A stretch of 64,000 nucleotides of DNA from a virus (taxonomy: Duplodnaviria; Caudoviricetes), in IMG/VR virus record IMGVR_UViG_3300024346_000004, one strand, 5' to 3'. Positions 5,777 to 47,502 of the stretch are shown here, piece by piece; the first letter of the stretch is position 1, and each line of letters starts with the position of its first letter. A program made the translations under genes and the position numbers. Under the pieces are notes generated by a model that worked only from the letters and a program-made list of their open reading frames with translations, ran no database searches and was not told the DNA's origin.

Positions 5777-6373
5777 ATGAATCATTTAGATATTTATAAA
5801 GTTGCGTCTGACAGGGATAAGAATCTTAATTTTCAAGAAGCTGACCATTTAGATAATGAATTGATCAAAATTGCACAAAATTTAAGTGTTCCAGGTGCAG
5901 TAGTTACAAGTCCATCTGAAATGTTTTTCGGTGGGGCAAATTCTCAATATGGTTTTTCCCAATTGCCAGGAGCTTCTATTCAAGGTAAAGGTGCTAAAAG
6001 ACCAGATTTATTCTTTCACGAACCTGGTTCTGATTCAAGATTTAGAATAAACCCAGCTACAGGTAGAGAATATTCTTACGATGAGATTAAAGTATTGCAA
6101 GAACGTGAATTGATGAATCAGCAAACTAGAAATCCTCAATATGAACAGGCATTTGAGAATCAGTGGAATAATTATTACCAGACATTAATTCAACAGGGTG
6201 CTACTCCTGATATGCTACAAAATGTATTATATCATTGGGGTGAAAAATTAGCTGCTAAGGTCAAAACTGGTATGACTCCTGCACAATTTTTCTCTCAGTA
6301 TGGAATTATTAATCCACAGCTTAGAACAAGCCTTATGAATCTATTACAACAGGAATCTTTACTTAAGAATTAA
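5777..6373 (+). CDS. hypothetical protein with shared N-terminal KxAQ leader
   Basis: MNHLDIYKVASDRDKNLNFQEADHLDNELIKIAQ then a Q-rich body. Confidence 0.7.
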   Translation: MNHLDIYKVASDRDKNLNFQEADHLDNELIKIAQNLSVPGAVVTSPSEMFFGGANSQYGFSQLPGASIQGKGAKRPDLFFHEPGSDSRFRINPATGREYSYDEIKVLQERELMNQQTRNPQYEQAFENQWNNYYQTLIQQGATPDMLQNVLYHWGEKLAAKVKTGMTPAQFFSQYGIINPQLRTSLMNLLQQESLLKN

Positions 6374-6390
6374 ATGTATAATTGGACATT

Positions 6391-7137
6391 ATGACATGTC
6401 CATTATATTGTTCTAAAGTAAATCAATGCTTTGTAAAAATTACTTCTAATACAAACATTCTATCTCATCTTACATCAATCCCCTTAAATCTTGTAGACAG
6501 TCAATGGTCCGAAGATTGCAAGGGGATTTTTGCTAATTGTTCTTTTGTTGAAAAAACTACAGAAGAAATTAAAGAAGAAGCACCTGATACTTCCGAAGCA
6601 CAAGAAGAGCCAGTTATTGAAATAGAAGATGTCAAAGTACGTATTTTCAAATTAGATAATCCATATGTGGTCAAAGCTGATGTACTTGTTTATCCTAATA
6701 ATATGCTTTTGAATATTGATGATCCTTTGCTTGCAAGAATGACTAAAAATAAAATGCAAGATTATTTGGATAAAGTCAAACGTCCTATTAAAATGGGTTC
6801 GGTACATGAATCAGAATCTTTTGGAATCGTTCCTAAGAAGGTTTACCATGCAATTATTTCTGGTGAAAGCAGATTAGTTAGTGAAGAAGATATTAGAATC
6901 TGCACAAGAAAATCTTTATTATTAGCAGAAGAAGCACAAGCAAGAACTGTTGTCTATATTCCATTTGACTGCGGAACACATGACATTCTTGACACAGCTA
7001 GAACACAATTAGCAGCAATTAAGACCTTTTTAAAGCAAAATAAGGACCTACAATACATTAAAAATATCTTTATTGTAATGGAAGATGAGGAATCTTACAA
7101 TGTTTTCATGGAATATTATAATAGAATATTTAAGTAA
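6391..7137 (+). CDS. Macro-domain-like protein with Cys-rich N-terminus
   Basis: KADVLVYPNN, KKVYHAI, SLLLAEE..RTVVYIPFDCG, IKNIFIV fit the macro fold; ATG 6391 preferred (TATAAT 8 nt upstream). Confidence 0.65.
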   Translation: MTCPLYCSKVNQCFVKITSNTNILSHLTSIPLNLVDSQWSEDCKGIFANCSFVEKTTEEIKEEAPDTSEAQEEPVIEIEDVKVRIFKLDNPYVVKADVLVYPNNMLLNIDDPLLARMTKNKMQDYLDKVKRPIKMGSVHESESFGIVPKKVYHAIISGESRLVSEEDIRICTRKSLLLAEEAQARTVVYIPFDCGTHDILDTARTQLAAIKTFLKQNKDLQYIKNIFIVMEDEESYNVFMEYYNRIFK

Positions 7138-7142
7138 AGGTA

Positions 7143-7478
7143 TTGTTTATGCAGCCAAAATCAGATGCTATATTACAAGCGTTTATGGACAGCTTTACAT
7201 TTCCACTATGGCTTGTTGATTCTAATCATAATATTTTAATGAATGAGTATGCTCTAGGGTTATCTAATTCTGGTTTTGATATAAGATCTAGAATTGGCAA
7301 AATGCGGTTAGGTGATACAAAAAATATTGTTTATAATGGAATAAAATATAAAATTCACAGTAAAGATATTAATCACGGCACAAACTGCTTAGTATTCACA
7401 ATGGAAAAAATACTTGATGATGTTGTTAGGCTCAAAGAATCAACATCTAAATTAAGGAAAGTATTAGGCTCAGTATAA
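7143..7478 (+). CDS. small PAS-like protein
   Basis: FMDSFTFPLWLVDSNHNILMNE resembles the PAS N-terminal motif; C-terminal coiled helix. Confidence 0.45.
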   Translation: MFMQPKSDAILQAFMDSFTFPLWLVDSNHNILMNEYALGLSNSGFDIRSRIGKMRLGDTKNIVYNGIKYKIHSKDINHGTNCLVFTMEKILDDVVRLKESTSKLRKVLGSV

Positions 7479-7481
7479 TTG

Positions 7482-8036
7482 ATGGAACATAATGATGATG
7501 ATTTCAATTACAGAGATCTCAAAAATATAATAAACGCACAAACAGAAGCTTATGTAGAATTCAATAATGCACTAGTAAGAATCATAGAACTTCAAAAACA
7601 GATTAAAGAAGAAATTAATCGTGTTGGGGATACTGATTTAGACGAGCTTAAAGGCATTTCTGAAAAAATAACCAAAGTTACTACTTTACTGGAATTATTT
7701 ACTGATAATAAAAACAGTCTAGCTAATGAGATGGACGAGTACAATGCTGTTCTTTCTGATTTCGGTTCAGAATTACAGAGTTTTAAATTCGACTTAGAAA
7801 GAATTATTCTTACCCAAGCTTCTAATAATGAATATGAAAAACTGAATAGATCTTTCAACGACAAATCAAATACTTTAAAATCCCTTATTGATACTTTGGG
7901 TAAAAAAGTAGATTCTATGCAAGGTACACAAGATAAAGCATATAGCCAAGTTCAAAAATTCTTATGGGGCTTAGGCGGAGCTTGGTTCGTTATTCAATTT
8001 TTAATTAGTATTGGACTGTATAATCTTAGGAAATGA
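7482..8036 (+). CDS. coiled-coil protein with C-terminal transmembrane helix
   Basis: heptad-rich body; FLWGLGGAWFVIQFLISIGLY at the C-terminus. Confidence 0.65.
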   Translation: MEHNDDDFNYRDLKNIINAQTEAYVEFNNALVRIIELQKQIKEEINRVGDTDLDELKGISEKITKVTTLLELFTDNKNSLANEMDEYNAVLSDFGSELQSFKFDLERIILTQASNNEYEKLNRSFNDKSNTLKSLIDTLGKKVDSMQGTQDKAYSQVQKFLWGLGGAWFVIQFLISIGLYNLRK

Positions 8037-10909: not shown

Positions 10910-10934
10910 AGGATATATAAACCTTCTTGGAGAA
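10910..10934 (+). promoter_or_regulatory. putative phage-specific promoter AGG-N17-GAGAA
   Basis: agg atatataaaccttcttg gagaa, heads the fibre operon. Confidence 0.55.
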
Positions 10935-10970
10935 TATGCTATCTGTACAATAATCTTTGTAAAACAAAAA

Positions 10971-12485
10971 ATGCTAAAAGAAAATAACATTTGGTCAGGG
11001 TCAAATACATTTTTAAAAAGTGTAGTTTTCCCAAAAAATCAAACATTTCATCTTGATAATCTTGTATCAGATTCTCCAAAATCTGGTTCAATGTTATACT
11101 ACGATGGCTCAAAATATTCTAATATTGAGCCAGGTTCATCCAATTCATCTCTTGTATTACTGGGAGATAAACCTACATGGACTTCTATCAATATTTCTAA
11201 AGTATCTGGAATATTGCCTATAGAAAATGGCGGTACAGGCTGGACAAACGTACCAAATCCAGGTTTATTATTTATTAACAAAGATATTATTGAATCTATA
11301 TCTCCTGTAAATAACAAAGTATTAGCTTATATTAACAATGAATTTACATGGATTTCTTTACCTGAACAAGCAACTATCCAATCTATTGAAGTTCCAGACA
11401 CATCAAATTTTATTACTTTAGATGATATTCCTAAGCAAAAAGATTTCTGGGAAGTTACTAATGGCGGAACAGGTCTCAAAAATGTAAATAAGGGTGATTT
11501 ATTATATTCAAATCAAGATAATAAAATCACCGTATTATCAGCGGTTAGTAAAGAGAATTTTATTTTATCTGTAGAAAATGATCTCCCAAAATGGATTGAA
11601 CTAGATGTAAATAAAATCCTCAAAAAACAGATAAAAGATTTCCCAACATTTGAAATAACAGATAAAGTCAAAATTAATAATATTGAGATAGCTCGTATAG
11701 ATTCTGATATTAATGGAACAGCTTTATCTATTAGAGAAATTTTACCAGCTAATTTAGGTGGTACAGGTTTTGATGTTTCTAATATACCTATGGGATCAAT
11801 ATTATATGCTTCTGAACAATCACATTATAATATCTTGTCTCCTGGGGAAGCTGATTCTGTTTTAATATCTAATGGAGAAAATAAAGCTCCATCATATAAA
11901 AAGATTAATTTAGAATATGCAGCAGGATCAGGAATTAAGCTATCAGATAAAACATTTTCTTTTGATAATGAAGCTAGCTATACTTTTACAAATCCACAAA
12001 GTTTTAATCTTATATCTACCAAAATCGCTAAAGCATCAAGAATTATATTAGAAGAAGATACTATAGACAAAAATAATAATAGCTTGTTTGTAGATAACAA
12101 TACATTATTCTTTAGAAGTAATAACAATAACCATAATTTACTTCAAAAACAAGAGATTATACAACCATACATTACATTACAAATATTATGTAATACTAAC
12201 GATTTATCCGCTCCATTTATGATTCCTTACTTGTCAGATCATAAAGAACAATTTAGAGTAAAAAGATTAGATTGGTATATTACAGATTACAAAGAATCTA
12301 TCAACATAAATATAGTTAAAAATGGTATAGATTTATTATCTAATGATATTTTAGTAGATAATAAAACAGGATATATAAATAATTTTGGACTATTGGAATT
12401 ACTGTCTGGAGATTTTATATTTTTCTCAGCATCAGTGGAAAATAAATGGAATCTTTGGATTACTCTTGAAAGGCTATCTGTATGA
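10971..12485 (+). CDS. tail fibre-like protein
   Basis: repeated LPxxNGGTG / GDLLY fibre motifs; C-terminal domain resembles that of ORF 25165. Confidence 0.65.
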   Translation: MLKENNIWSGSNTFLKSVVFPKNQTFHLDNLVSDSPKSGSMLYYDGSKYSNIEPGSSNSSLVLLGDKPTWTSINISKVSGILPIENGGTGWTNVPNPGLLFINKDIIESISPVNNKVLAYINNEFTWISLPEQATIQSIEVPDTSNFITLDDIPKQKDFWEVTNGGTGLKNVNKGDLLYSNQDNKITVLSAVSKENFILSVENDLPKWIELDVNKILKKQIKDFPTFEITDKVKINNIEIARIDSDINGTALSIREILPANLGGTGFDVSNIPMGSILYASEQSHYNILSPGEADSVLISNGENKAPSYKKINLEYAAGSGIKLSDKTFSFDNEASYTFTNPQSFNLISTKIAKASRIILEEDTIDKNNNSLFVDNNTLFFRSNNNNHNLLQKQEIIQPYITLQILCNTNDLSAPFMIPYLSDHKEQFRVKRLDWYITDYKESININIVKNGIDLLSNDILVDNKTGYINNFGLLELLSGDFIFFSASVENKWNLWITLERLSV

Positions 12486-14911
12486 GTAATTTCTTTATAA
12501 TTCCACCTCGTTTGATTGTTGGCTCTACTCCTGGGGTCAATGTAGTAACAAGCTTAAATGGTCTTCGTGGAGATCTAATTGTAAGTGCTGATACTCTTTC
12601 TGGAATCTCAGCATCAGTAAATAATAAAACAATTACCCTTACCATATTGCCAAACTTCTATGTAAAAAAAGCTGGCGATACATTTCTTGGTAACCTTGAT
12701 TTTATTCCTACAGCTGGCAAATATGGTCTTAAACTATTAGCTTCAAATGTAGATCCAACAGAATTTGCTGAAGGCGCTATTTATTTTAACACTAACGCAA
12801 ATGTACTTAAAATTTATTCTGATGGTGCTTGGTTAACATTAGCTCAAACAGGTGCATTAACACAAGTAGATGGAGACCTTAGATATCTTAAAATAGATGC
12901 TAGTAATGGTCCTTTAACAGGCAACTTATCTTTAGGTACTACATTATTAGGTTTAGGACAAAAAAATTCCGATCCGCTTACTGGTGTTCCGGGACAGGTC
13001 TATTATAATACAACTACAAATTCACCAAGATTATATGATGGTACTGCTTGGACAGGATTTGCTGGTGCTGCGGTTAGTCTTACATCAGGGAACGGTATTA
13101 GTCTTTCTCCATCCACAATTACTTCCAATGGTTCTATATCAGTTAATCTTGGATATAATTTTATTTGGACAGGCTCTCATACACATAACAACGCTATAAC
13201 ATTTGCAGCTGCTCAAAGATTTGATATTACTAAATTAGAAATAACATCTCAAGCTACAGGTGATTTAACATATTATTCTGGTACTAACTGGACTAGAAGA
13301 GCAATTGGTACAGATGGTCAAGTATTATCCGTAGTATCTGGTGTACCTACTTGGAGTACGATTTCAGATGGTAGAATTGGCACCCCAGCAGATACATCTT
13401 ATTCTGATGGTTATTTTAGCACATGGACATCGAGTACTACAGTAGCAGATGCATTTGATGATGTTAATGAACTATTATTACTATTAGCTCCAACTCAAGG
13501 TGGTTTACTTACTGGAGTTAATCTTACATCATCTGGAGTTACGTTCTATTCAGCCAAAGTACCATCCGGATTACCTGCTGCTTGGTATGGCAATGGTGTT
13601 ACTGCTGGAAGTACTATTACATCTTATTATGTAACAGGTACATTATCTCTTGTATCACCGTCTCCATCAACTATTTTTAGAGCTGGTAAACTTAACACTC
13701 CATCTAGTTATGGCAATGTTGTTCATAAATTATATACTGTAGCAGCCCCATCTGGAACAGCGGTAGACACTATAGCTTTATCTAGTATTGTTTCTACTCC
13801 TTCTACAACAGGTTCTTTAACAATTACAGATTTTTCCACTTATAATACAATCTGGAAAAAAGCAAATGCAACAATATCTGTAGTGCAAACAAATGAAGGA
13901 TATGAAGGCCACAGTTTATTTGGAACAGAGGCTGGAGAATCTAATACAATCCATATATACAAGGATACTGTTAATCCAGCGCCATCTTTTAGCACATCAC
14001 CTACCGCAACACAAAATACCGCTTCTTTTAAATATTTATCCGGTATTCAATATTATAATCTTACATCTAGTTTTGATATGAGATTTGTTGCAGCTTCTGG
14101 TATATTTAATAGATGTTATCACCCTACTAAAGTAGCAGCTATAAATGCCACTGGTTTAACAGAAGTAAGTGTAAATCCAGCTACTACTCCTGTCTACACG
14201 GATACTTTTGATAAATCTGGGGCTAATTTTGTTACAACAACTTTGAATGTAGTTGATAGAAATTCATTAAATAAATACATCACGGTAACATTAAATAAAC
14301 CTGCTGGCGGGACAACATCAGTGAATGCATCTATTTCTTATTTTATTAATACATACACCACTAAATCAACACAAACAGCAGAATATTTTGTAGATGAAGC
14401 CCAAAGGTTGGTATTAGGTACAAACACTGCCTGGACATCTACAAATGCCCTAATTAATGGCAATGCGCAAGTAAGGAATTTCACTACAGCAAATACAGGA
14501 TGCTTACAAGTGGCTGATGGTACTGATTATCCAGGTTTTACAGGAAATCAAGAATATCAAAGATATTTCTACAAAACATCTGCATCTACAGGTTCTTTAG
14601 CATTTGGAAATATTTTATATACAGATATTGCTGCTCACGGTACTGGTAATGTAAATGTTTTACTTTATTTAGAAAATGATGCTAAATGGTTTGATCTAGC
14701 AGTACCTCAAGGATCAAATTCTAATGATGGTTCTTCTAGAGCTTTAGCTATTTCAGGTAGAGCTTTTGGTAGTAGCGGTGGAACTCTTAACTGGTCTATT
14801 GGAACATATACTACTGGTCCAACATCTTCTGGAAACTTAGGCAGATATAGAATTGTTATTATATTTAGAAATCTGACTACGACTAAAATAACTTCAATAG
14901 TGAGTAGCTAA
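12482..14911 (+). CDS. tail fibre/structural protein
   Basis: VTSLNGLRG, GAIYFNT..LKIY, GQVYYNT..RLYDGTAW fibre repeats; Thr/Ser/Gly-rich. Confidence 0.7.
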   Translation: MSNFFIIPPRLIVGSTPGVNVVTSLNGLRGDLIVSADTLSGISASVNNKTITLTILPNFYVKKAGDTFLGNLDFIPTAGKYGLKLLASNVDPTEFAEGAIYFNTNANVLKIYSDGAWLTLAQTGALTQVDGDLRYLKIDASNGPLTGNLSLGTTLLGLGQKNSDPLTGVPGQVYYNTTTNSPRLYDGTAWTGFAGAAVSLTSGNGISLSPSTITSNGSISVNLGYNFIWTGSHTHNNAITFAAAQRFDITKLEITSQATGDLTYYSGTNWTRRAIGTDGQVLSVVSGVPTWSTISDGRIGTPADTSYSDGYFSTWTSSTTVADAFDDVNELLLLLAPTQGGLLTGVNLTSSGVTFYSAKVPSGLPAAWYGNGVTAGSTITSYYVTGTLSLVSPSPSTIFRAGKLNTPSSYGNVVHKLYTVAAPSGTAVDTIALSSIVSTPSTTGSLTITDFSTYNTIWKKANATISVVQTNEGYEGHSLFGTEAGESNTIHIYKDTVNPAPSFSTSPTATQNTASFKYLSGIQYYNLTSSFDMRFVAASGIFNRCYHPTKVAAINATGLTEVSVNPATTPVYTDTFDKSGANFVTTTLNVVDRNSLNKYITVTLNKPAGGTTSVNASISYFINTYTTKSTQTAEYFVDEAQRLVLGTNTAWTSTNALINGNAQVRNFTTANTGCLQVADGTDYPGFTGNQEYQRYFYKTSASTGSLAFGNILYTDIAAHGTGNVNVLLYLENDAKWFDLAVPQGSNSNDGSSRALAISGRAFGSSGGTLNWSIGTYTTGPTSSGNLGRYRIVIIFRNLTTTKITSIVSS

Positions 14912-14913
14912 AA

Positions 14914-16248
14914 ATGCCATGGCTTGACACAGATATTAGTTTTAAGAAACTAAACAATAAACGAATCACTACATCTACTGGTAAAGGTTTAGCAGAAGAA
15001 CGTGGCGCTTCTACTATTGAAAATCATGCCAGAGATTTAAAAATAGACACGATACCTGGTGTTCCTCCTGGTTCTACTACTACTATAGTCCAAGTTTATT
15101 CTACTGGATCTCCGTTGTTATTAGTAGAAGATCTTTCTGTACCTAATCAACAAGCTTGGTTTGCTACTTCTATTTCTGATACTGTTACAGCTAATAATGG
15201 TACTAATGGTTCTGAATCTGCTAGGTTGATGGATTGGATACCTGATAAATACGATTCTCCTGGTACTGTTTCTGGTACTGGATATGAAATCAAATTATAT
15301 GATTCTAGTAACGTTTTAATCCCAAAATCAGATTCATCTCAATGGTTCTTCGATTATCAAACAGGTATTTTATTATTTAAAAATGCTAATACAGATTCTG
15401 GTTCTGTTTCTTCAAGAGCTCCATTTAAAGTTGCAGGTTATAGATATGTAGGTAGAAAAGGTAGTTATTGGGCTATTCCAAGAACTGTTACTTTTGCTGG
15501 TGGTAATGTAACAGGATCTTTTACTATAGATGGTTCAGCAGATGTTCCTGGAGTGGTATTAACAGCTTCTATCTCTGCTGCGGGGCAATTAAATGTTACA
15601 GACGATACTACAACTAATGCAGCTCGTTACATTTCTTTCACTTCTGCTACATCAGGCGCTGCTACTTTTAACGTTTCTTCTACTAAGCTTACTTACAATC
15701 CATCTAGTGGAACTCTTAACTCAACTATTTTATCATCAGGAACATTATTAGCTCCATCTTCAAGTTTGGCTATAAAACCTACTACAAACGCTACTACTGC
15801 TATACAAATACAAAATAGCGCCGGAACATCTATTCTCAACATAGATACAACAAATAATAGAGTTGGTATCGGCACTACTACACCTTCATACGATCTTGAA
15901 GTAAACGGTGAAATATCAGCTACAAGTAAATCATTTGTAATTATTCATCCTACTAAAGAAGGAATGAAATTAAGATATGGAAGTTTAGAAGGACCTGAAA
16001 ATGGTGTATATGTAAGAGGTATTGCTAATTCTAATATAATAGAATTGCCAGATTATTGGACTGGTTTAGTAAATTCTTCTACTATTACTGTACATTTAAC
16101 ACCTATTGGGAAACATACTAATCTTGTTTTTATTAAATATGAAGACAATAAAGTATACATAAAAGCTGGCTGGTTTCAAAAGATTAATTGCTTCTATTCT
16201 ATATGGGCTGAAAGAAAAGATGTCCCCAAGATTAAGGTGGAATTTTAA
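14914..16248 (+). CDS. tail fibre protein with conserved KSF..LEGPE..LPDYW C-terminal domain
   Basis: RVGIGTTTPSYDLEVNG then KSFVIIHPTK..YGSLEGPENGVYVRG..LPDYW. Confidence 0.75.
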   Translation: MPWLDTDISFKKLNNKRITTSTGKGLAEERGASTIENHARDLKIDTIPGVPPGSTTTIVQVYSTGSPLLLVEDLSVPNQQAWFATSISDTVTANNGTNGSESARLMDWIPDKYDSPGTVSGTGYEIKLYDSSNVLIPKSDSSQWFFDYQTGILLFKNANTDSGSVSSRAPFKVAGYRYVGRKGSYWAIPRTVTFAGGNVTGSFTIDGSADVPGVVLTASISAAGQLNVTDDTTTNAARYISFTSATSGAATFNVSSTKLTYNPSSGTLNSTILSSGTLLAPSSSLAIKPTTNATTAIQIQNSAGTSILNIDTTNNRVGIGTTTPSYDLEVNGEISATSKSFVIIHPTKEGMKLRYGSLEGPENGVYVRGIANSNIIELPDYWTGLVNSSTITVHLTPIGKHTNLVFIKYEDNKVYIKAGWFQKINCFYSIWAERKDVPKIKVEF

Positions 16249-16961
16249 TGGGTGTATTTTATAATCCATCTATTATCACTGAAGGATTAGTATTGTATCT
16301 AGATGCTGCTAATCTTAAAAGTTATCCTGGATCTGGGACGACATGGAATGATTTAAGTGGCAATAATAATAATGCTCCAATGGTCAATACTCCAACATAT
16401 TCTAATCTTAAAAATGGTGCTTTTACATTTGATGGAGCTGGAACTAATTATTTTGATTTAGATAGCAAAGCATCTCTTATAAATGTGAATGCAGGTACAG
16501 TTGGTGGATGGGTAAGATTCAACGATCTTGACTCAGATTCAACTAATTATGTTTTTGTTTCATATGGTGGAAATGCATATGGTGGAGGTTTTATTTTACA
16601 ACATGCAGGTCTTGGAGGGGCAGCATTAAGGTTAGAACTTCTAGCTTGGGGAGGTAGTATTACTGGAGTTCCGAGAGCAAACATAGATAAGGTTACAGCC
16701 TTGCCATTTCAGGGCCAAGATATTTACATGATCGGAACGTGGACAACATCAGAGGTCAAATTATATATCAATGGTGATTTAAGAGCTACAGTTTTAACAA
16801 ATGCAGCACTCCCATCCAGATCCACTTTGAGAATTAGTAGTGAAGCTGGTAGAAGTAGAGGTGTCAATGGGAATGTTTACAATTGCTCAATCTATAATCG
16901 TGCTTTATCTACTCAAGAAATCTTACAAAATTATAATGCCACAAAAGGAAGATATATGTAA
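16248..16961 (+). CDS. LamG/concanavalin A-like lectin domain protein
   Basis: GLVLYLDAAN.KSYPGSGTTWNDLSGN; IYNRALSTQEILQNY. Confidence 0.8.
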   Translation: MGVFYNPSIITEGLVLYLDAANLKSYPGSGTTWNDLSGNNNNAPMVNTPTYSNLKNGAFTFDGAGTNYFDLDSKASLINVNAGTVGGWVRFNDLDSDSTNYVFVSYGGNAYGGGFILQHAGLGGAALRLELLAWGGSITGVPRANIDKVTALPFQGQDIYMIGTWTTSEVKLYINGDLRATVLTNAALPSRSTLRISSEAGRSRGVNGNVYNCSIYNRALSTQEILQNYNATKGRYM

Positions 16962-18319
16962 TGGGTGTTTTTTCTTCTCCTAGTATTCCTTTGGAGGGTC
17001 TTGTTTTTTCAATAGATGCTGGAAATTCAAAAAGCTATTCTGGATCTGGCACAAATGTAAATGATCCTATTAATAGTATATCTGGGGTTATGAACAATGG
17101 AGTTGGCTTCAGTACTCTCATAGGTGGATATTTTTCATTCGACGGTACAGATGACAAAATTTTATATCCATTAAATTCAACTTATGACATATCTCAATCT
17201 ATAACCATTGAAGCACATATCAGACCTTTAAATTATACTTCAGCAGGTGGTGGAGGGATGATTATTACAAAAGTAGCTTCTTATTATCTTGAACTCGCTT
17301 TAAATGGAAAAATAAGAGTATATTTTGGTGGATTAAACTCTCCAGGATATCATGAAAGTGTTGGCACTGTATATCTTAATGTTTGGACTCATGTTGCAAT
17401 TACTAGAGACTTTGCTAATAATACTATAAATATTTATATCAATGGTGTGCTAGATAGAACAGTCAGCGGAATTACAGGGAATATAACTGTTCAGCAAACT
17501 TATGGATTATCTGTAGGGGGATATTCTGCTGGAGGATATTTATTTATAGGTCATATAGCTTGTGGAAAAATCTATAATAGAGCCTTATCTGCAGCAGAAG
17601 TAGCACAATTATATAATGCTACAAAAGATCGATATTCATATAAAGCAGATATTATTAAAAATGGACTTCTTCTTAATTATGACATATCTTCTAATTTGTC
17701 ATATACCAGCCCAGATACTTACATACAAAGCACAATCAATAACTACCCTGGATTGGTTGTAAATGGCCCAACTTATAGCTCAAATAATGGTGGATATTTA
17801 AATTTTGATGGAACTAATGATCATATTTTAGTTTACAATAGTCCTTTTGGATTTACCTCAGAAAGTTTTACATATTCTTATTGGATTTATATTAATAGCT
17901 TTACAACGAATTTAGCAAATCAAGGTCCAATTCCATATTATAAAGGTGATTATCAGATAAATGGATATTACTCTCAAATAGGTTCAGATGGAAGTTATTT
18001 CTTTGGTACGAATCAAGGCGGAGCTATGCAATTTAGTGGTACAGCAGCAGCAACTTTTACTACAGGTGTTTGGTATTATATTTCAGATGTAAGAAATGGA
18101 TCTTCTGTAAGAATTTATGTAAATGGTATTGATAGGACAAGTGTTGCAGGTACTCATATAAATCCATCTTATTCCAATTCAGGTTTATACATTGGATCTT
18201 ATAGAACGTTTATTTTTAGCAATATTAGAATAGGAAATTTTAAAGTTTACAACAGAGCACTAAATTCCACTGAAATTTTGTCAAATTTCAATGCTCTTCG
18301 TGGTAGATTCGGTATATAA
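16961..18319 (+). CDS. tandem LamG/concanavalin A-like domain protein
   Basis: two copies of FDGT.D..W..V..Y(I/V)NG..YNRAL. Confidence 0.8.
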   Translation: MGVFSSPSIPLEGLVFSIDAGNSKSYSGSGTNVNDPINSISGVMNNGVGFSTLIGGYFSFDGTDDKILYPLNSTYDISQSITIEAHIRPLNYTSAGGGGMIITKVASYYLELALNGKIRVYFGGLNSPGYHESVGTVYLNVWTHVAITRDFANNTINIYINGVLDRTVSGITGNITVQQTYGLSVGGYSAGGYLFIGHIACGKIYNRALSAAEVAQLYNATKDRYSYKADIIKNGLLLNYDISSNLSYTSPDTYIQSTINNYPGLVVNGPTYSSNNGGYLNFDGTNDHILVYNSPFGFTSESFTYSYWIYINSFTTNLANQGPIPYYKGDYQINGYYSQIGSDGSYFFGTNQGGAMQFSGTAAATFTTGVWYYISDVRNGSSVRIYVNGIDRTSVAGTHINPSYSNSGLYIGSYRTFIFSNIRIGNFKVYNRALNSTEILSNFNALRGRFGI

Positions 18320-18341
18320 TATAATAGAAAGGAAAAATATT

Positions 18342-18599
18342 ATGGAAGATCGTAATTATGTTATTTTTGATGCTGATGAGGTAGACAAGATTGATTTCAC
18401 CCAAGTTTTAGAAACATCTGCGGAAACATTGAGATTTTCAGTAGACGGCACTAAGACTTTCGTAAAATTTGAAGGTAGCACTCCAGCTTGTTTAGATCAA
18501 GTTACATCAAAATCAGAAGCGTATTCTCATTCTGAAATTCTTGTACTTCTCGCTACAGAAGAATGGACAAACCCAAATCCAATGGGAATTCCAGAATAA
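18342..18599 (+). CDS. small phage protein associated with LamG fibre genes
   Basis: ETSAETLRFSVDGTKTFVKF..EEWT; SD AAGGA before ATG 18342. Confidence 0.65.
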   Translation: MEDRNYVIFDADEVDKIDFTQVLETSAETLRFSVDGTKTFVKFEGSTPACLDQVTSKSEAYSHSEILVLLATEEWTNPNPMGIPE

Positions 18600-18696
18600 A
18601 CAGTATAATTTTGTTTGATTGTGCCTAAATAGATTAAAAGAATTAAAGGGCTCGATCTTGAATATAATAGAGAGCTCTTTACTCTTTTGATTTCCT

Positions 18697-21447: not shown

Positions 21448-21451
21448 AAAA

Positions 21452-25155: not shown

Positions 25156-25164
25156 AGGTGTTAA

Positions 25165-28269: not shown

Positions 28270-28270
28270 A

Positions 28271-36677: not shown

Positions 36678-37118
36678 ATGTGGTATAAAATTGCTCAACA
36701 AAATTTTCAAAATATAGCTGACACAACCTCTCCGACACATGTTTCTGGAGGTGGTAATGCTGGATTTTCTGTCGATTATCCTACAGCACAAAATATTAAA
36801 AAGTCCTTAGATTCACATCAGCCATACCAATTCACTACAACAGATGGTAAAAAATTCTTAGTATTACATGGCAACTATTCTAATGGTGTAGAATATTTTG
36901 ATGTTGGTGGAACTAGTATCGCTGAACAAGATCTAGCACAATGGATGAGAAATAACGGCATGGATCCTACTGTTACACAAATATTAGCTTGTGGAGTAGG
37001 CAATGTTAATCCAGCTACAGGTTTACATCCAGCTATTGATATTACTGGTATAACTAATCTTAGTATCCCTACTACCCCACCAGCCGATACAAATCCAGTT
37101 ATGGTTGGAGTAAGCTAA
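36678..37118 (+). CDS. hypothetical protein with short MWYKIAQ leader
   Basis: 146 aa; VLHG..ILAC motifs. Confidence 0.65.
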   Translation: MWYKIAQQNFQNIADTTSPTHVSGGGNAGFSVDYPTAQNIKKSLDSHQPYQFTTTDGKKFLVLHGNYSNGVEYFDVGGTSIAEQDLAQWMRNNGMDPTVTQILACGVGNVNPATGLHPAIDITGITNLSIPTTPPADTNPVMVGVS

Positions 37119-37799: not shown

Positions 37800-38324
37800 A
37801 TGGATCGTATTGCAACATTAAATAATCTAAACAATGTTATCAATTCTTTAGAATCAAAGGGTAAATATACTTTAGCATCTCAGGTACAAGAAGTATTTGA
37901 AAAAGTAGCTCAAGCAGATATGTCTAGAAAAGATTTTTTATCTAAAGGTGTTAATTGGGCTGCTGGTCTTGGAATGGCCGGTGGTGCTGGGGCTTTAGTT
38001 AAGGACACTATGGACAAAGCTAAGGATAAACAAGATATTCTTAATCAAATGGCAGAACATGGTTATAGATTAGGTATGGGCATGAGAATTAATGTTGCTG
38101 GATCTGGCGTTAGAAATTGGCAAAGATTCCTCAATGACCACTTTGATGGCAGACTAGATGATGATGGACGTTTTGGACAATCTACTATGCTTGTTACTAA
38201 GAACTTCCAAAAAGCTCATGGTATTACTCCAGATGGTGCTGTTGGTCCTGAAACTATGAAAGCAGCATTAAGTCTTCTAGAAGAAAATATGGAAGATTCA
38301 GAAGATCTTCTTGGAATGGAATAA
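37800..38324 (+). CDS. peptidoglycan-binding domain protein with KxAQ leader and Tat-like segment
   Basis: VRNWQRFLN..DDGRFG..NFQKAHGITPDGAVGPET (PG-binding type 1). Confidence 0.75.
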   Translation: MDRIATLNNLNNVINSLESKGKYTLASQVQEVFEKVAQADMSRKDFLSKGVNWAAGLGMAGGAGALVKDTMDKAKDKQDILNQMAEHGYRLGMGMRINVAGSGVRNWQRFLNDHFDGRLDDDGRFGQSTMLVTKNFQKAHGITPDGAVGPETMKAALSLLEENMEDSEDLLGME

Positions 38325-42438: not shown

Positions 42439-42492
42439 TTCTAGAAGAATGTTATATTACCTTTTAAAGGTTCATATATTATTGTAGAAGAA
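42439..42492. promoter_or_regulatory. back-to-back putative phage-specific promoters
   Basis: minus AGG-N16-TAGAA (42439-42462); plus AGG-N17-AAGAA (42468-42492). Confidence 0.55.
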
Positions 42493-42525
42493 ATATTAGA
42501 TTATATTGTTTTTGGAGATTTAGAA

Positions 42526-42828
42526 ATGCTTAATAAATTAGCTTCTATTGCTAACGATTTAGATAATTATGGTATGTACAAGGAAGCGAATGAAATCACT
42601 TCTGTAATGAAGAGACTGTCCGGAATTTTTGATAAAAACGAAGATGTTGATTATCTTGCCATGGCTCATGCACTTAATAATGTTGCTAAAAATGAAGGTT
42701 GGCAAAACTTTAGAGAAAATTATTATGTTGATGGCCAATTCAAAGCTCAACAGTTAGCTAGAGAATTAGAACAAGTAAAAGCAAAAAATCTTTCTGAAGC
42801 GGAAGAAATGCTTAGATCGGAAGAATAA
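42526..42828 (+). CDS. hypothetical protein with shared N-terminal leader
   Basis: MLNKLASIANDLDNYGMYKEANEITSVMKRLS. Confidence 0.7.
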   Translation: MLNKLASIANDLDNYGMYKEANEITSVMKRLSGIFDKNEDVDYLAMAHALNNVAKNEGWQNFRENYYVDGQFKAQQLARELEQVKAKNLSEAEEMLRSEE

Positions 42829-43416
42829 ATGGCTACTATTGAAGATTTAGCAGATTTAGCATTAGAATTAGATAATAATAGTGCTCATAGATTAGCAGAT
42901 AAAATTACTTTAGCAATGAACAAATTTGCTAATGAAGATTGGGACCATGAATACGATATGGTCAGAAATGAAATGGAAACTGCTAAAAGAGCTATTGAAG
43001 GCATTGAAGATGTAGTGGGCGAAGATGGCGAAGGGAATTTGATGGCTTGGGTACAGTCTAAAATTTCTAATGCTGTTCAAATGCTAAAAGGTGTCTCTGA
43101 TTATTTAGTCAGCGAAGAAACTGTTGGTCAGAAAACAGCTGCTAAAAATGATGGCAAGAAACTAAACAAGCCTTTCAGAACTCCGGGTGGTCCTAAAAAG
43201 TTCTCTGTTTATGTAAAGAACGATAAGGGTAATATCATTAAGGTTAATTTTGGCTCGCCAGACATGGAAATTAAAAGAGACGACCCAGAACGTAGAAAAA
43301 ATTTCAGAGCCAGGCATAATTGTGACAATCCAGGTAAAAAGTGGAAAGCTCGTTGGTGGTCATGTCGCAATTGGGAAGCTGGGAGATCTGTATCTGACAA
43401 TCTTAAGGGTAAATAA
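42829..43416 (+). CDS. leader-bearing protein with basic C-terminal domain (DUF6321-like)
   Basis: KLNKPFRTPGGPKKFSVYVK..VNFG..RRKNFRARHNC..WSC. Confidence 0.7.
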   Translation: MATIEDLADLALELDNNSAHRLADKITLAMNKFANEDWDHEYDMVRNEMETAKRAIEGIEDVVGEDGEGNLMAWVQSKISNAVQMLKGVSDYLVSEETVGQKTAAKNDGKKLNKPFRTPGGPKKFSVYVKNDKGNIIKVNFGSPDMEIKRDDPERRKNFRARHNCDNPGKKWKARWWSCRNWEAGRSVSDNLKGK

Positions 43417-44195: not shown

Positions 44196-44204
44196 AATAT
44201 TTTA

Positions 44205-45011
44205 ATGAATTACAAGCAATACCTTAAACTAGCATCAAATTTAGATAAGACTGGTCAATATAAAAGATCAGATTATATTTTTAACTTGGTTTTATCACAA
44301 ACACAAGATGATGAAGAAAATTACGATGACGAAGATGATTTAGAAGATGATGACAATACTCCTCATGAGATAATTCATCCGACACCTGTATTTTTTAATG
44401 CTGCCACTAATCAACCAGTAATGCATGAAGGAAAATATTTAGCAGCTTTACCTTTTGATCAAGATCTTCCTGAAATAAGAGGAAAAGTTAAAGCTATGAC
44501 TGGTTTAGAAAATCTAACAATTGTCAGAATACCAGTAAATATTTTAATTGTTGAATGGGTGCGTTCAGAATCAGATGCTCGCAAAACTCAAGAATTAGAA
44601 GATGCTTTAGCTTCCGGAATAGAAGATATTGGTGATTTCGGATTCTTGTTAATGATCAATGAAAACATTTTAGATGTCAAAGGTAAAGATTTAGTCTTTT
44701 CTTCTGAATCTGATGCATATGGTTTTGGAAGAGTTATAGCTGAACATTATAAAAGAGCCGGTAGAGAGATGGAAATATCTGTTGCTCCTGTCGCAGTGTC
44801 TTTAATGGATGCAAAAGAAGAAGGAATGTCATTGCCTGAAATGTATGGTGATGATGAATTTATCTTTGTTAGCAATTCATCATTCAAAGCTACTGAAATA
44901 CCAGAAACTATGGCTGATTTGAAAGATGAATTATTCCATTTATCAATGGTAAGAACATATACAGTTGATAGACTACAAAGAGAAAAACTCGGCGACTATG
45001 ATTTTGAATAG
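44205..45011 (+). CDS. acidic protein with shared N-terminal leader
   Basis: MNYKQYLKLASNLDKTGQYKRSDYIFNLVLSQ then a D/E tract. Confidence 0.7.
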   Translation: MNYKQYLKLASNLDKTGQYKRSDYIFNLVLSQTQDDEENYDDEDDLEDDDNTPHEIIHPTPVFFNAATNQPVMHEGKYLAALPFDQDLPEIRGKVKAMTGLENLTIVRIPVNILIVEWVRSESDARKTQELEDALASGIEDIGDFGFLLMINENILDVKGKDLVFSSESDAYGFGRVIAEHYKRAGREMEISVAPVAVSLMDAKEEGMSLPEMYGDDEFIFVSNSSFKATEIPETMADLKDELFHLSMVRTYTVDRLQREKLGDYDFE

Positions 45012-45024
45012 AAAGCATAAATAG

Positions 45025-45052
45025 AAAAGAGGACTGAAAAGTCCTCTTTTTT
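45025..45052. terminator. bidirectional terminator
   Basis: aaaagaggact-gaaa-agtcctctttt. Confidence 0.8.
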
Positions 45053-45561: not shown

Positions 45562-45613
45562 AAAATTCTTTCAGATAGCATATTGTATACCAATATAATG
45601 GCAATGTCAAATA

Positions 45614-45638
45614 AGGTTACAAATAATTTTACATAGAA
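45614..45638 (+). promoter_or_regulatory. putative phage-specific promoter AGG-N17-TAGAA
   Basis: agg ttacaaataattttaca tagaa, 9 nt before ATG 45648. Confidence 0.6.
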
Positions 45639-45647
45639 AAAATAAGT

Positions 45648-45923
45648 ATGGATACTAATAACTTACTCAATGATTTAAATCATATCATTACATTACTGGA
45701 AAATGATGGAAATATTGTTGTTGCTAATGATTTACAAGATGTATTTGTAAAGATAGCAAAGAAGAAACCAGCAAAGAAAAATAATGTTCCTAATGATCCA
45801 GAACTTTATTCTCGTTGTAAATCAGAAGTAAAGAAGAAATTTAAAATTTGGCCTTCTGCTTATGGATCTGCAGCTTTGGTTCGCCTTTATAAACAAAGAG
45901 GCGGAACTTATAAAAAGAGTTAA
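45648..45923 (+). CDS. leader-bearing small basic protein (DUF5872-like N-part)
   Basis: leader ending VFVKIAK, then P.DPELY..K..K..WPSAYGS..LV..YK.RGG.Y. Confidence 0.65.
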   Translation: MDTNNLLNDLNHIITLLENDGNIVVANDLQDVFVKIAKKKPAKKNNVPNDPELYSRCKSEVKKKFKIWPSAYGSAALVRLYKQRGGTYKKS

Positions 45924-45928
45924 ATATC

Positions 45929-46306
45929 ATGAGTAAATGGATTAAAGTAGATGAAGATACTGAATTCACTAAAGAAGCTGATTTAAAAGATTGGTTTAAA
46001 GAAAAATGGGTAGATGTCTCAAGACCTAAGAAAAAAGGTAAGGGATATGAACCTTGTGGAAGAGGCGATACATCAAAAGGTAAAAAGCCTGTATGTACCC
46101 CTGCTAATAAGGCGAAAAACTTAACAGATAAAGAACGTAAAACTAGAATCCGCCAAAAAAGAAAAAAAGAAAAAGAACCTAATCCTGATAAAAAACCTAA
46201 CACCACCACATATACAGAAAATGCGGGTGGTAAATCTAATGTATCAAATAATCACAATATTAAATTTGTTGGTAGTACGATTGATCTTAACAACGAAAGT
46301 AAATAA
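45929..46306 (+). CDS. small basic protein (DUF5872-like C-part)
   Basis: LKDWFKEKWVD..PCGR..PVC.P; very Lys-rich. Confidence 0.65.
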   Translation: MSKWIKVDEDTEFTKEADLKDWFKEKWVDVSRPKKKGKGYEPCGRGDTSKGKKPVCTPANKAKNLTDKERKTRIRQKRKKEKEPNPDKKPNTTTYTENAGGKSNVSNNHNIKFVGSTIDLNNESK

Positions 46307-46308
46307 TC

Positions 46309-47502
46309 ATGCATCTTGTTTTTAAAAAATTAGCAGAAATTGAAAAGAAGAATTTATTTTCTTATGCAGATTATGTATTTAATAGAATAGCTCAAGTAGA
46401 TGTACCGGAAGAATTAGATGAGATTAGTAATGATATTGATACTGATTTATCTGATAATGAAATTGATCCTATAAAGTTAAATAAAATAAATCAATTAATA
46501 GAAGCTACAAAATTCCATTTATTATCTGTTGGAAATGATGCAAAAACCCCTAAAGGACTAAAATCAGGCTATATTACAGCTATTTTATATCTTGAACCAG
46601 GCGCATCTCAAATTTATAATATGGATGAATTTGATCAATATAAATTAGAGAATAAAAAATCAGGTCTAAGTACAACACAATTATGGGAAAAGTTTAAAAA
46701 AGATAATACACCTCATGCTACTAAAACAACCTGTACACATGCTTCTCCACAATGTTTAAAAGATTGTATTTATCACACAGGTAGAGGCGGGATTGATAAT
46801 GTTCAAGCTAGTAGAGAAATGAAAACTAGCAGAATGTTTCATCCAGCAACAAAAGATTTTTCAAATAAAATATTAGAAGTAGATATTAGAAATTTAATAT
46901 CCCTATGCCATAATCTAAATACAGTATTTGATTTAAATGTAAAGCCAGTAGTTAGGTTAAACGGAACCACTGATATTAACTGGGCTAAAGAAGCAGCACA
47001 TTTACATGAAAAATTTTCTGATGTAACATTCTATGATTATACTAAAGTTCCTAAATTTATGGATATGTATTTAAAAGGCCAAAATCCATATACAGGCAAG
47101 CCATTTAATCCTAACTATCATATGACATTCTCTAGATCTGAATCAAACAAATCACAAGCTCTTAACTTTCTTGAAAGAGGCGGTAATGTAGCTATTGTGT
47201 TTGATCAAATTCCAGATACTTTAACCTATCATGGAAAGACATACAGAGTTGTTAATGGAGATAGACATGACCTTAGATTTCTTGATGATATTGAAGGTGA
47301 AAAAATACCAGGAGAAGGTCTAGTTATTGGATTAAAATATAAAAGACCTATTGGAACAGAACGAAGACAAAAAAGAGTAGATAGACAAAAAGAAATTTCT
47401 CCATTATTTAAAAAGCTAAATATGGAATCCGAAGGTAGTAGTGTGCATGAAGAACCTTTTGTAATTATTACTAATGGAGAAAAGAATGTGGTAATCGGAT
47501 AA
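46309..47502 (+). CDS. Gp88-like protein with shared N-terminal leader
   Basis: TCTHASPQC..C..GRG, VRLNGTTDI, FYDYTK, NYHMTFSRSE, GDRHDLRF.D, VIGLK.K. Confidence 0.7.
   Translation: MHLVFKKLAEIEKKNLFSYADYVFNRIAQVDVPEELDEISNDIDTDLSDNEIDPIKLNKINQLIEATKFHLLSVGNDAKTPKGLKSGYITAILYLEPGASQIYNMDEFDQYKLENKKSGLSTTQLWEKFKKDNTPHATKTTCTHASPQCLKDCIYHTGRGGIDNVQASREMKTSRMFHPATKDFSNKILEVDIRNLISLCHNLNTVFDLNVKPVVRLNGTTDINWAKEAAHLHEKFSDVTFYDYTKVPKFMDMYLKGQNPYTGKPFNPNYHMTFSRSESNKSQALNFLERGGNVAIVFDQIPDTLTYHGKTYRVVNGDRHDLRFLDDIEGEKIPGEGLVIGLKYKRPIGTERRQKRVDRQKEISPLFKKLNMESEGSSVHEEPFVIITNGEKNVVIG

What the first reader, a model, noticed from the sequence alone, without database searches (positions are those of the whole stretch)
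5777..47502. Shared N-terminal leader on unrelated proteins: candidate virion-packaging / protease-processing tag
Seen: seven proteins with unrelated bodies start with a ~30-38 aa helical leader that aligns without gaps over a 13-aa core: RDKNLNFQEADHL (5777), LESKGKYTLASQV (37800), LDNYGMYKEANEI (42526), LDNNSAHRLADKI (42829), LDKTGQYKRSDYI (44205), LENDGNIVVANDL (45648), IEKKNLFSYADYV (46309). Each ends in a (K/R)-h-(A/S)-x motif or near variant: KIAQ, KVAQ, RLSG, KFAN, VLSQ, KIAK, RIAQ. The cargo after it differs: PG-binding, DUF6321-like, DUF5872-like, Gp88-like, acidic. Known: T4 internal proteins carry a capsid-targeting sequence removed by gp21, and phiKZ head proteins carry propeptides cut by gp175. 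Inference: a portable address tag that loads diverse cargo into the head and is cut near KxA(Q).
Basis: partly seen in the sequence, partly recalled or inferred. Interest (0 to 1): 0.88.

Follow-up and report, generated by a model that had tools for sequence, protein, structure and literature searches.

The report
Shared hairpin tag on jumbo-phage proteins
An uncultured giant phage related to Bacillus phage G starts at least 14 unrelated proteins with the same undescribed two-helix tag of about 35 residues. The tag is probably an address label that loads them into the virus head, but neither loading nor cutting has been shown.

Summary
All seven window proteins carry the tag. A profile built from those seven finds eight more copies in the 166-kb record, far above shuffled controls. 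An exhaustive search finds 1,061 protein clusters, all viral or metagenomic. The tag starts within 15 residues of the N-terminus in 142 of 144 proteins checked, and sits on at least 57 unrelated bodies.

The tag is a single helix-turn-helix that resembles one TPR_10/TPR_12 repeat. Almost every position is conserved. It ends in [KR]-hydrophobic-Ala and is followed by a disordered acidic or Pro-rich linker. Some relatives carry it at the C-terminus or in several copies.

Tag-bearing relatives are 260-360 kb phages whose capsid protein is about 49% identical to that of Bacillus phage G. In their head modules the maturation protease, portal, scaffold-like protein and neighbouring proteins all keep a conserved [KR]-x-Ala near the N-terminus. 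One tagged gene lies inside that module.

My best reading is a head-loading tag with a protease site at the tag-cargo junction, confidence about 0.45. Loading and cutting are both inferred. The main rival is a docking module for some other hub.

The scan has noted this same tag on other DNA (e1-5336899, e1-5336991).

The parts
5777..5875 (+). Tag (residues 1-33, ends K-I-A) of the 198-aa protein 5777-6373. It is the most divergent of the seven.
   Evidence: 52 bits. The gene lies in the operon 3400>4962>5777 behind the AGGA..GAAATAT promoter at 3339.
37800..37910 (+). Tag (residues 1-37, ends K-V-A) of the 174-aa protein 37800-38324. It is followed by S-R-K-D-F-L, a Gly/Ala-rich weakly hydrophobic segment and PG_binding_1.
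42526..42621 (+). Tag (residues 1-32, ends R-L-S) of the 100-aa protein 42526-42828.
   Evidence: 57 bits. Its own AGGT-N18-GAAATAT promoter is 30 nt upstream.
42829..42930 (+). Tag (residues 1-34, ends K-F-A) of the 195-aa protein 42829-43416. The body matches phrog_7595 and, weakly, DUF5754.
44205..44297 (+). Tag (residues 1-31, ends V-L-S) of the 268-aa acidic protein 44205-45011.
45648..45758 (+). Tag (residues 1-37, ends K-I-A) of the 91-aa protein 45648-45923. Its body is the first 42 positions of DUF5872.
46309..46392 (+). Tag (residues 1-28, ends R-I-A) of the 397-aa protein 46309-47502. An acidic linker and a GP88 domain follow.
   Evidence: 38 bits, the weakest member.
42468..42496 (+). 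Promoter-like site AGGT-N18-GAAATAT in front of tagged genes 42526 and 42829. It is the same type as the sites at 3339-3367, 7088-7116 and 10910-10937; the last heads the virion and fibre operon.
   Evidence: 7 of 13 genome-wide sites lie 27-34 nt before a start codon. One search gives the structural annotation of the 10971-29797 operon. Function as a promoter is inferred.
3339..3367 (+). Promoter-like site AGGA-N19-GAAATAT heading the operon that contains tagged gene 5777.
   Evidence: Inferred.
36678..36698 (+). Ultrashort N-terminus M-W-Y-K-I-A-Q of the 146-aa protein 36678-37118. It mimics the last residues of the long tag (V-M-K-K-I-A-Q) and may be a minimal version of the junction motif.
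   Evidence: nine MWY starts in the record. (MWYRIAQ protein next to the portal gene in relatives). The relation to the long tag is inferred.

Best explanation
The tag is a free-standing helix-turn-helix of about 35 residues, derived from or convergent with a single TPR_10/12 repeat. It most likely works as a procapsid address label in a clade of uncultured jumbo phages related to Bacillus phage G.

Proposed mechanism; every step below is inferred, and none was shown here:
1. The hairpin docks its cargo onto a conserved internal head component during prohead assembly. Candidates are the acidic scaffold-like protein, the roughly 1,100-residue extension fused to the maturation protease, or the inner capsid surface.
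2. The gp19-type head maturation protease then cuts at the [KR]-hydrophobic-Ala junction between tag and cargo.
3. The freed cargo, a fast-changing set of small and mostly acidic proteins, stays in the head and is delivered with the DNA.

Shown here: the tag exists and is portable; selection acts on the protein; the tag is predicted as a hairpin followed by a disordered linker; the clade has a head maturation protease; and the same [KR]-x-Ala motif is conserved at the N-termini of head-module proteins.
For: 1. Portability. There are 15 copies in the record and 7-24 per related 261-358 kb phage. The exhaustive search finds 1,061 clusters. In 142 of 144 proteins the tag starts within 15 residues of the N-terminus. 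The 196 tagged proteins fall into 57 unrelated body clusters.

2. Selection on the protein. Between close paralogues, 6-11 of 38 codons differ synonymously.

3. A conserved partner is implied. Almost every position is 85-100% conserved, including polar surface positions. Conservation stops right after [KR]-[LIV]-A.

4. Structure. AF2 gives helices 3-20 and 23-39, then a disordered stretch at 40-55 before the body. The linker is enriched in Pro, Asp and Gly.

5. Phage-only distribution. There is no match in 185,579 prokaryote genomes.

6. Head genes of relatives. The capsid protein is 48-50% identical to phage G gp27. A head maturation protease domain is present (phrog_18299, E 6.5e-18) and is 38.6% identical to phage G gp19. 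A multi-omics preprint on phage G calls gp19 a head maturation protease (10.1101/2024.12.16.628780).

7. Shared motif in the head module. In four relatives the protease, portal, scaffold-like protein, p324 and the MWY protein next to the portal all keep a [KR]-x-A motif within about 40 residues of the N-terminus, while flanking residues vary. Phage G gp14, gp19, gp20 and gp21 show similar motifs.

8. A tagged gene (lead147) lies inside the head module of three relatives.

9. Promoter class. Tagged genes 5777, 42526, 42829 and genome 161799 sit behind the same promoter type as the virion and fibre operon.

10. Precedent. T4 CTS tags sit on polymorphic internal proteins and are removed by the prohead protease. 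T4 Alt is processed at both termini (PMC9026906).
Against: - There are no proteomic or cleavage data for any tagged protein.
- No cultured phage carries the tag, and phage G itself lacks it.
- The [KR]-h-A end coincides with the structural end of helix B in TPR_12-like repeats, so its conservation does not need a protease.
- Two cargo types have a Gly/Ala-rich or hydrophobic segment followed by PG_binding_1, with or without GH108. That looks like membrane insertion. Ejected lysins would look similar.
- Tagged genes at 36-48 kb lie among SOD, thioredoxin reductase, IscA-like, GIY-YIG and HNH genes. Several lack the late-type promoter.
- The tag also occurs at C-termini, internally without a Met, and two or three times in one protein. 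That fits a general interaction module.
- Most tagged genes in relatives lie in arrays far from the head module.
- The head module of this genome itself is not in the 46%-complete record I could read.
Confidence: 0.45

Rival explanations
1. The tag is a general docking module for a hub that is not the capsid. It would bind a conserved phage or host protein in the infected cell and bring many accessory proteins to it. Candidate hubs are the phage ClpX-like unfoldase, a chaperone, a replication or transcription factory, or a membrane complex.
For: - It is TPR-like in sequence. Among the 150 best hits of the profile, 36 are TPR_10/12 repeat proteins, matched at profile positions 5-29. TPR units are generic protein-binding modules.
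- Surface positions are conserved.
- It occurs at N- and C-termini, internally and in multiple copies.
- Cargo includes FHA, AP2, zinc ribbons and membrane-anchored PG-binding proteins.
- Tagged genes sit among auxiliary metabolic genes.
- A ClpX-like ATPase with an unassigned 105-residue N-domain lies in the operon just upstream of tagged gene 5777.
Against: - No candidate hub has been identified.
- It does not explain why the tag ends in the motif shared with head-module N-termini.
- It does not explain why a tagged gene is a fixed member of the head module.
- Some tagged genes share the virion-operon promoter.
Confidence: 0.28
2. The hairpins bind each other. Tags pair or stack like TPR repeats, so tagged proteins form hetero-oligomers or a multivalent network. 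Proteins with two or three copies would act as cross-linkers.
For: - Natural proteins carry N- plus C-terminal copies, adjacent tandem copies or three copies (P0154, P0158, P0268, P0155, P0181, P0277, P0004).
- An isolated amphipathic hairpin is unlikely to be stable alone (inference).
- Long low-complexity linkers follow the tag.
Against: - Many apparent multi-copy proteins are simply neighbouring genes fused in frame. Their internal copies begin with Met-Asn-Lys.
- The extreme conservation of polar positions across dozens of cargo families suggests one fixed partner rather than mutual pairing.
- There is no experimental or computational support.
Confidence: 0.1
3. There is no common destination. 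The tag would be a successful N-terminal cassette that spreads by recombination because it gives good expression, folding or stability to new small genes. The similarity of its end to head-protein N-termini would be coincidence.
For: - Tagged genes form tandem arrays with swapped bodies and frequent in-frame fusions.
- Bodies are mostly ORFans.
Against: - An expression cassette would not need 85-100% conservation at nearly all 35 positions with abundant synonymous change.
- It would not function at C-termini.
Confidence: 0.08
4. The tag is a cytoplasmic regulatory domain of lysis or envelope proteins that has spread secondarily to other genes.
For: A conserved architecture of tag, weakly hydrophobic segment, PG_binding_1 and, in some, GH108 appears in this genome (37800; genome 86503-87996) and in many relatives (P0062, P0079, P0082 and others).
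Against: - Only 2 of the 15 local copies and about 7 of the 196 fetched proteins have this architecture.
- The neighbours of the GH108 gene are NusG-like, glycosyltransferase-like and methyltransferase-like genes, not a lysis cassette.
Confidence: 0.05

Closest known systems
Capsid targeting sequence (CTS) of phage T4 internal proteins IPI, IPII, IPIII and Alt (PMC9026906)
   Same: Both are portable terminal tags on unrelated, fast-evolving small proteins encoded outside the head gene cluster. In both, the tag is followed by a junction where the prohead protease could cut. T4 also processes some proteins at both ends, which parallels the C-terminal copies seen here.
   Different: - The T4 CTS is 10-19 residues. 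This tag is a folded hairpin of about 35 residues with no sequence similarity to it.
- T4 cuts after L/I-x-E, whereas this junction is [KR]-h-A.
- The T4-type protease (PF03420) and T4 capsid protein (PF07068) are absent from all five records searched.
- Packaging is proven for T4 and only inferred here.
C-terminal helix-turn-helix coat-binding domain of the phage P22 scaffolding protein (my own knowledge; not tested here)
   Same: Both are small amphipathic helix-turn-helix units at a protein end. The P22 domain is sufficient to carry foreign cargo into procapsids, and it shows that a helical hairpin can be a capsid-interior address.
   Different: There is no detectable sequence relation. The P22 domain belongs to one scaffolding protein and is not cleaved. 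Here the hairpin sits on dozens of unrelated proteins.
TPR_10 / TPR_12 tetratricopeptide repeats (Pfam PF13374, PF13424)
   Same: The consensus is alike: L-x-S-L-N-N-L-A-x-x-L-D-x-x-G-x-Y-x-E-A, then a helix B ending in hydrophobic-Ala. The tag profile retrieves TPR_10/12 proteins through 5-12 weak repeat matches each.
   Different: TPR proteins carry tandem arrays of three or more repeats. The tag is a lone unit at a protein end. No single tag reaches any Pfam TPR model at E <= 0.1. Common descent is possible but not shown.
Propeptides of phiKZ and SPN3US head proteins removed by gp175/gp245 (PMC5694885, PMC10052503; listed, not read in detail)
   Same: Both are giant-phage systems in which many head and ejection proteins carry N-terminal propeptides cut at a short consensus site.
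   Different: The phiKZ-type motif is small-x-Glu (my own knowledge). The propeptides there are not one shared portable module. The phage lineage and protease are different.
Encapsulin cargo-loading peptides (my own knowledge)
   Same: Both are short terminal tags that dock unrelated cargo to the interior of an HK97-fold shell.
   Different: Encapsulin peptides are short and unstructured, mostly C-terminal, and not cleaved. Encapsulins are cellular nanocompartments, not virions.

Membership tests
T4-type capsid targeting sequence | N-terminal propeptide of 10-19 residues similar to M-K-T-Y-Q-E-F-I-A-E | tested here: not met
   The tag is a 28-38 residue two-helix unit with a different consensus. 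CTS features are taken from PMC9026906.
T4-type capsid targeting sequence | Ends at a gp21 site (L/I-x-E), and a T4-type S77 protease is present | tested here: not met
   The junction is [KR]-[LIV]-A. PF03420 has no match in G000 or in four relatives. The control genomes also gave no match for this family, so that negative is weak.
T4-type capsid targeting sequence | The tag is necessary and sufficient for incorporation into proheads, and is then removed | not testable with these tools
   No cultured phage carries the tag, and no proteome is available.
TPR repeat (Pfam TPR_10/TPR_12) | Sequence matches the repeat consensus | tested here: inconclusive
   The tag profile pulls TPR_10/12 proteins at E down to 1e-25 by summing 5-12 weak repeat matches. 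Single tags get no Pfam TPR hit at E <= 0.1.
TPR repeat (Pfam TPR_10/TPR_12) | Tandem array of three or more repeats forming a superhelix | tested here: not met
   One unit per protein in 214 of 281 fetched hits. AF2 shows one hairpin followed by a disordered linker.
Substrates of a phage-G-type (gp19-like) head maturation protease | The clade encodes the protease between the portal and capsid genes | tested here: met
   Met in relatives G001-G004 only: phrog_18299 at E 6.5e-18, 38.6% identity to phage G gp19, conserved gene order. It could not be checked in G000, which is 46% complete and lacks the head module.
Substrates of a phage-G-type (gp19-like) head maturation protease | Carries the protease's cleavage motif at an exposed site | tested here: inconclusive
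   The [KR]-x-A motif is conserved at the N-termini of protease, portal, scaffold-like and other head-module proteins. It ends the tag just before a disordered linker. The protease's specificity has never been measured.
P22-type scaffolding coat-binding helix-turn-helix | Terminal amphipathic helix-turn-helix that binds the coat protein interior | tested here: inconclusive
   A helix-turn-helix is predicted. Binding is not testable here. Foldseek against the PDB gave nothing at E <= 0.001.

The most novel reading that the evidence does not exclude
A TPR-derived helical hairpin is the universal cargo address of a whole clade of phage-G-like jumbo phages. Each phage would use it to load one to two dozen hypervariable effector proteins into the head. 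The gp19-type protease would release them at a [KR]-h-Ala junction, and they would be co-injected with the DNA. This would be a T4-IP-like system invented independently, on a much larger scale, with a folded tag.
Probability: 0.4. Interest if true: 0.8.

Novelty: new variant of a known kind. Interest (0 to 1): 0.62.

Why it matters
If the tag is a head-loading address, it marks the injected protein arsenal of a widespread but uncultured group of giant phages. That is dozens of ORFan families per genome, and probably includes counter-defence and host-takeover factors. It would make them findable by one 35-residue profile.

It would also be a second, independently evolved and structurally different solution to the problem T4 solves with its CTS. 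It could serve as a tool for loading foreign proteins into very large capsids.

Even if the destination is different, this is an undescribed and very strongly conserved small domain with more than 1,000 clusters and no Pfam family. It deserves a family definition.

Tried and rejected
- **Self-association of the tag** (complex prediction, two copies, 110-row alignment). Score 0.34 against a mark of 0.42, so no verdict. I do not use it for or against any reading.
- **Fold search.** Foldseek of the AF2 model against the PDB gave nothing at E <= 0.001.
- **Pfam and PHROGs on the tags.** No family covers the tag.
- **ESM Atlas feature search on the tag.** Scores were 0.85, below the useful range.
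- **Head gene families.** PF07068 (T4 gp23), PF05065 (HK97 capsid) and PF04586 (S78 protease) gave no hits in five records. The capsid and protease were found only through phage G proteins and PHROGs.
- **phmmer of the protease domain against PDB sequences.** No match.
- **DNA-level repeat or mobile element.** Rejected, because close paralogues differ by many synonymous codons.
- **Recoded stop codons as the cause of fused multi-tag proteins.** Not supported here. The in-frame genes at the record's end are separated by ordinary TAA codons.
- **Search for untagged homologues of a cargo body** (P0009, residues 52-142). It returned only near-identical proteins and was uninformative. The local search was biased towards tagged proteins.
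- **[KR]-h-A enrichment at N-termini of untagged proteins in this record.** Only modest (P about 0.008 for the loose motif, 0.07 for the strict one), so I do not lean on it.
- **A cleavage-like [KR]-x-[AS] motif just upstream of C-terminal copies.** Present in some and absent in others, so suggestive at most.
- **Literature searches.** No description of this tag was found.

Full report

They align with almost no gaps over about 33 residues.

I built an HMM from those seven alone and ran it against every stop-to-stop segment in all six frames of the 165,921-bp record that holds the window. The window is bases 14574-78573 of that record. Besides the seven, the HMM found eight more copies with E from 2.4e-10 to 0.047. 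The best unrelated segment had E 0.69.

After rebuilding the HMM, the 15 members score 38-67 bits and the next segment 10.3 bits. Twenty residue-shuffled versions of the six-frame set peak at 4-14 bits.

Fourteen copies start a gene. One ends a gene: the 210-residue protein at genome 164929-165561 on the minus strand. Three close paralogues differ at 6-11 of 38 codons by synonymous changes, so selection acts on the peptide, not on a DNA repeat.

**2. How widespread is it?**

- A word-indexed search with the 15-leader alignment found 205 proteins at E <= 0.01 among the 8,000 candidates scored.
- The exhaustive profile search of 1.84 billion representatives found 1,061 clusters at E <= 1e-3 and 106 at E <= 1e-10.
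- Of the 144 proteins fetched first, 142 start the tag within 15 residues of the N-terminus.
- The fetched single-copy proteins have a median length of 164 residues.
- Their bodies fall into 57 unrelated BLAST clusters among 196 proteins.
- Pfam recognises almost none of the bodies. The few hits are PG_binding_1, GH108, FHA and AP2.
- The core subfamily has no match in 185,579 prokaryote species genomes, in any cultured phage or in phage G itself.
- In IMG/VR the tag sits on contigs of up to 358 kb. Four large records carry 7, 10, 17 and 24 copies, many in tandem arrays.

**3. What is the module?**

The second class of hits in the exhaustive search is long TPR_10/TPR_12 proteins. Each matches profile positions 5-29 five to twelve times. 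Their repeats read much like the tag (L-T-S-L-N-N-L-A-x-x-L-D-x-x-G-x-Y-x-E-A). No single tag reaches a Pfam TPR model. The tag is therefore a lone TPR-like helix-turn-helix.

AF2 on a tagged protein of this genome (P0009, mean pLDDT 80) gives helices 3-20 and 23-39, a disordered stretch at 40-55, and then a separate helical body.

In 174 distinct tags nearly every position is 85-100% conserved, including polar positions. Conservation ends directly after [KR]-[LIV]-A. The next 30 residues are enriched in Pro, Asp and Gly.

Such full-surface conservation across dozens of cargo families points to one conserved binding partner. That is an inference.

The module is not strictly N-terminal.
- Three tandem paralogues of about 900-1,000 residues in each of two relatives end with it.
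- Several proteins carry an N-terminal and a C-terminal copy, or three copies without an internal Met (P0154, P0158, P0268, P0155, P0181).
- Other apparent multi-copy proteins are neighbouring genes fused in frame. Their internal copies begin with Met-Asn-Lys.

**4. Which phage is this?**

CheckV puts the record at 46% complete, and it lacks a head module. It shares many genes at 40-87% identity with the tag-bearing contigs.

Four of those contigs encode a capsid protein 48-50% identical to gp27 of Bacillus phage G (E about 1e-93). They share a conserved head module, in this order:
- portal;
- a 1,380-1,408-residue protein;
- an acidic 533-562-residue scaffold-like protein;
- a decoration-like protein;
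- the capsid protein.

The N-terminal domain of the large protein matches PHROG "head maturation protease" (E 6.5e-18). It is 38.6% identical to phage G gp19, which a multi-omics preprint on phage G calls a head/capsid maturation protease (10.1101/2024.12.16.628780).

The roughly 1,100-residue extension fused to this protease gave no match in phage G, which also has no tags (the tool notes that an empty answer shows little). I record that only as a lead.

**5. Evidence bearing on head loading and cutting**

In all four relatives the N-terminal 40 residues of several head-module proteins keep a [KR]-x-Ala motif at aligned positions while neighbouring residues vary:

| Protein | Conserved motif |
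|---|---|
| Protease | M-x-[KR]-[FV]-A-K-G-G (K replaced by I in G004), then L-K-T-A-S |
| Portal | [KR]-T-[AS]-A |
| Scaffold-like protein | [KR]-[IL]-A-E, then [KR]-[FT]-A-S |
| p324 | [KR]-I-A-Q-F-G-G |
| Small protein beside the portal | M-W-Y-R-I-A-Q in G001; also M-W-Y-R- in two other relatives |

Phage G gp14, gp19, gp20 and gp21 show similar motifs. In other phages these are the proteins that the prohead protease trims. The long tag ends in the same motif.

A tagged gene (lead147) is a fixed member of the head module in three relatives.

In this genome a promoter-like site, AGG[AT]-N17-19-GAA[AT]TAT, occurs 13 times. Seven of the sites lie 27-34 nt before a start codon. These sites head the following:
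- the virion and fibre operon 10971-29797, which has PHROG virion-structural and tail-fibre hits;
- the operon containing tagged gene 5777;
- tagged genes 42526 and 42829;
- the tagged gene at genome 161799.

The overall picture resembles T4. There, variable arrays of small proteins share a tag encoded away from the head genes, and the tag (the CTS) is cut off by the prohead protease. T4 Alt is trimmed at both ends (PMC9026906).

**6. Evidence pointing the other way**

- Nothing shows that any tagged protein is in a virion or is cut.
- The [KR]-h-A end is also what a TPR_12-like helix B would end with.
- Two local cargo proteins, and a conserved family in relatives, have a Gly/Ala-rich or hydrophobic segment and then PG_binding_1, with or without GH108. 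That suggests membrane insertion, although ejected lysins could look the same.
- Tagged genes at 36-48 kb are interleaved with Fe/Mn SOD, thioredoxin reductase, an IscA-like gene and homing endonucleases. Several lack the late-type promoter.
- Most copies in relatives are far from the head module.
- Terminal, internal and multiple copies fit a general interaction module just as well.

**7. Verdict**

The "portable address tag" idea is well supported.

The specific destination (the head) and the cut at K-x-A are plausible. They are supported by indirect, mutually consistent clues, but they are unproven. I put them at about 0.45.

A docking module for another hub comes second at about 0.28.

In kind this is a new variant of a known principle, the capsid-targeting propeptide. 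It is carried by an undescribed TPR-like domain. Earlier notes of this scan describe the same tag in other phage-G-like genomes. I re-derived the head-module motif and the protease assignment myself, but I could not test packaging.

Noticed in passing
window 36678-36698; also genome 11614, 13371(-), 105424, 108219, 108870, 109552, 109904, 160706: Nine genes in the 166-kb record begin M-W-Y, mostly M-W-Y-[KR]-x-A-[QSAI]. Trp is rare here, so this is far from chance. In relatives a gene starting M-W-Y-R sits directly beside the portal gene in three of four genomes (M-W-Y-R-I-A-Q in G001). This looks like a minimal version of the long tag's end.
   Followed up: partly
window 45648-45923 and 45929-46306: A DUF5872 domain is split between two adjacent ORFs in different frames. 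The tagged 91-aa protein holds profile positions 1-42, and the next 125-aa ORF holds positions 47-114. This could be a frameshift, a sequencing error or a genuine split.
   Followed up: no
genome 164101-165921 (locus L001 6102-7922), minus strand: Four consecutive genes lie in the same reading frame, separated only by single TAA codons: one ends with the tag, one is cut by the record's end, and two start with it. In relatives the equivalent neighbours are often fused into one ORF with two tags (P0001-P0007, P0011, P0013).
   Followed up: partly
window 3339-3367, 7088-7116, 10910-10937, 42468-42496; minus strand 33803; genome 10547(-), 162482(-): A promoter-like motif, AGG[AT]-N17-19-GAA[AT]TAT, lies 27-34 nt before start codons. 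It heads the virion and fibre operon and several unknown operons.
   Followed up: partly
15-45 nt upstream of starts at window 10971, 31016, 33730, 36678, 44205, 45648: A recurrent T-[GT]-T-A-C-[AC]-A element occurs in A-rich, Shine-Dalgarno-poor leaders. At 10971 it lies downstream of the GAATAT box, so it may be a 5'-UTR element rather than a promoter.
   Followed up: no
window 2006-3382: A ClpX-like AAA+ ATPase is about 35% identical to the ClpX of jumbo phages such as PA5oct. It has an unassigned 105-residue N-terminal domain in place of the usual zinc-binding domain. It sits just upstream of the operon with tagged gene 5777.
   Followed up: no
window 37914-37990 (protein residues 39-64 of 37800-38324): Directly after the tag comes S-R-K-D-F-L-S-K and a Gly/Ala-rich segment. 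This resembles a twin-arginine (Tat) signal with R-K in place of R-R, or a SAR-type anchor, ahead of the PG_binding_1 domain.
   Followed up: no
L037 3220-7407 (-) in relative G001, and orthologues in L038, L039, L040: In tag-bearing relatives the head maturation protease domain is fused to an extension of about 1,100 residues. The extension gave no match in Bacillus phage G, which also lacks the tag. It is a candidate docking platform.
   Followed up: partly
L028 6103-14561 (+) and L029 8641-14527 (-): Tandem paralogues of about 900-1,000 residues with no Pfam family (three in L028, two in L029) each end in a C-terminal copy of the hairpin (...K-L-D-x-K-x-x-Y-K-L-A-D-K-[FL]-T...). There is no homologue in the available part of this genome.
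   Followed up: partly
L002 1599-2189 (-), genome about 85.6-86.2 kb: A phage-encoded NusG-like protein (K-W-Y-A-V-H-V N-terminal motif) lies next to the tagged GH108/PG_binding gene. This was identified by eye only.
   Followed up: no
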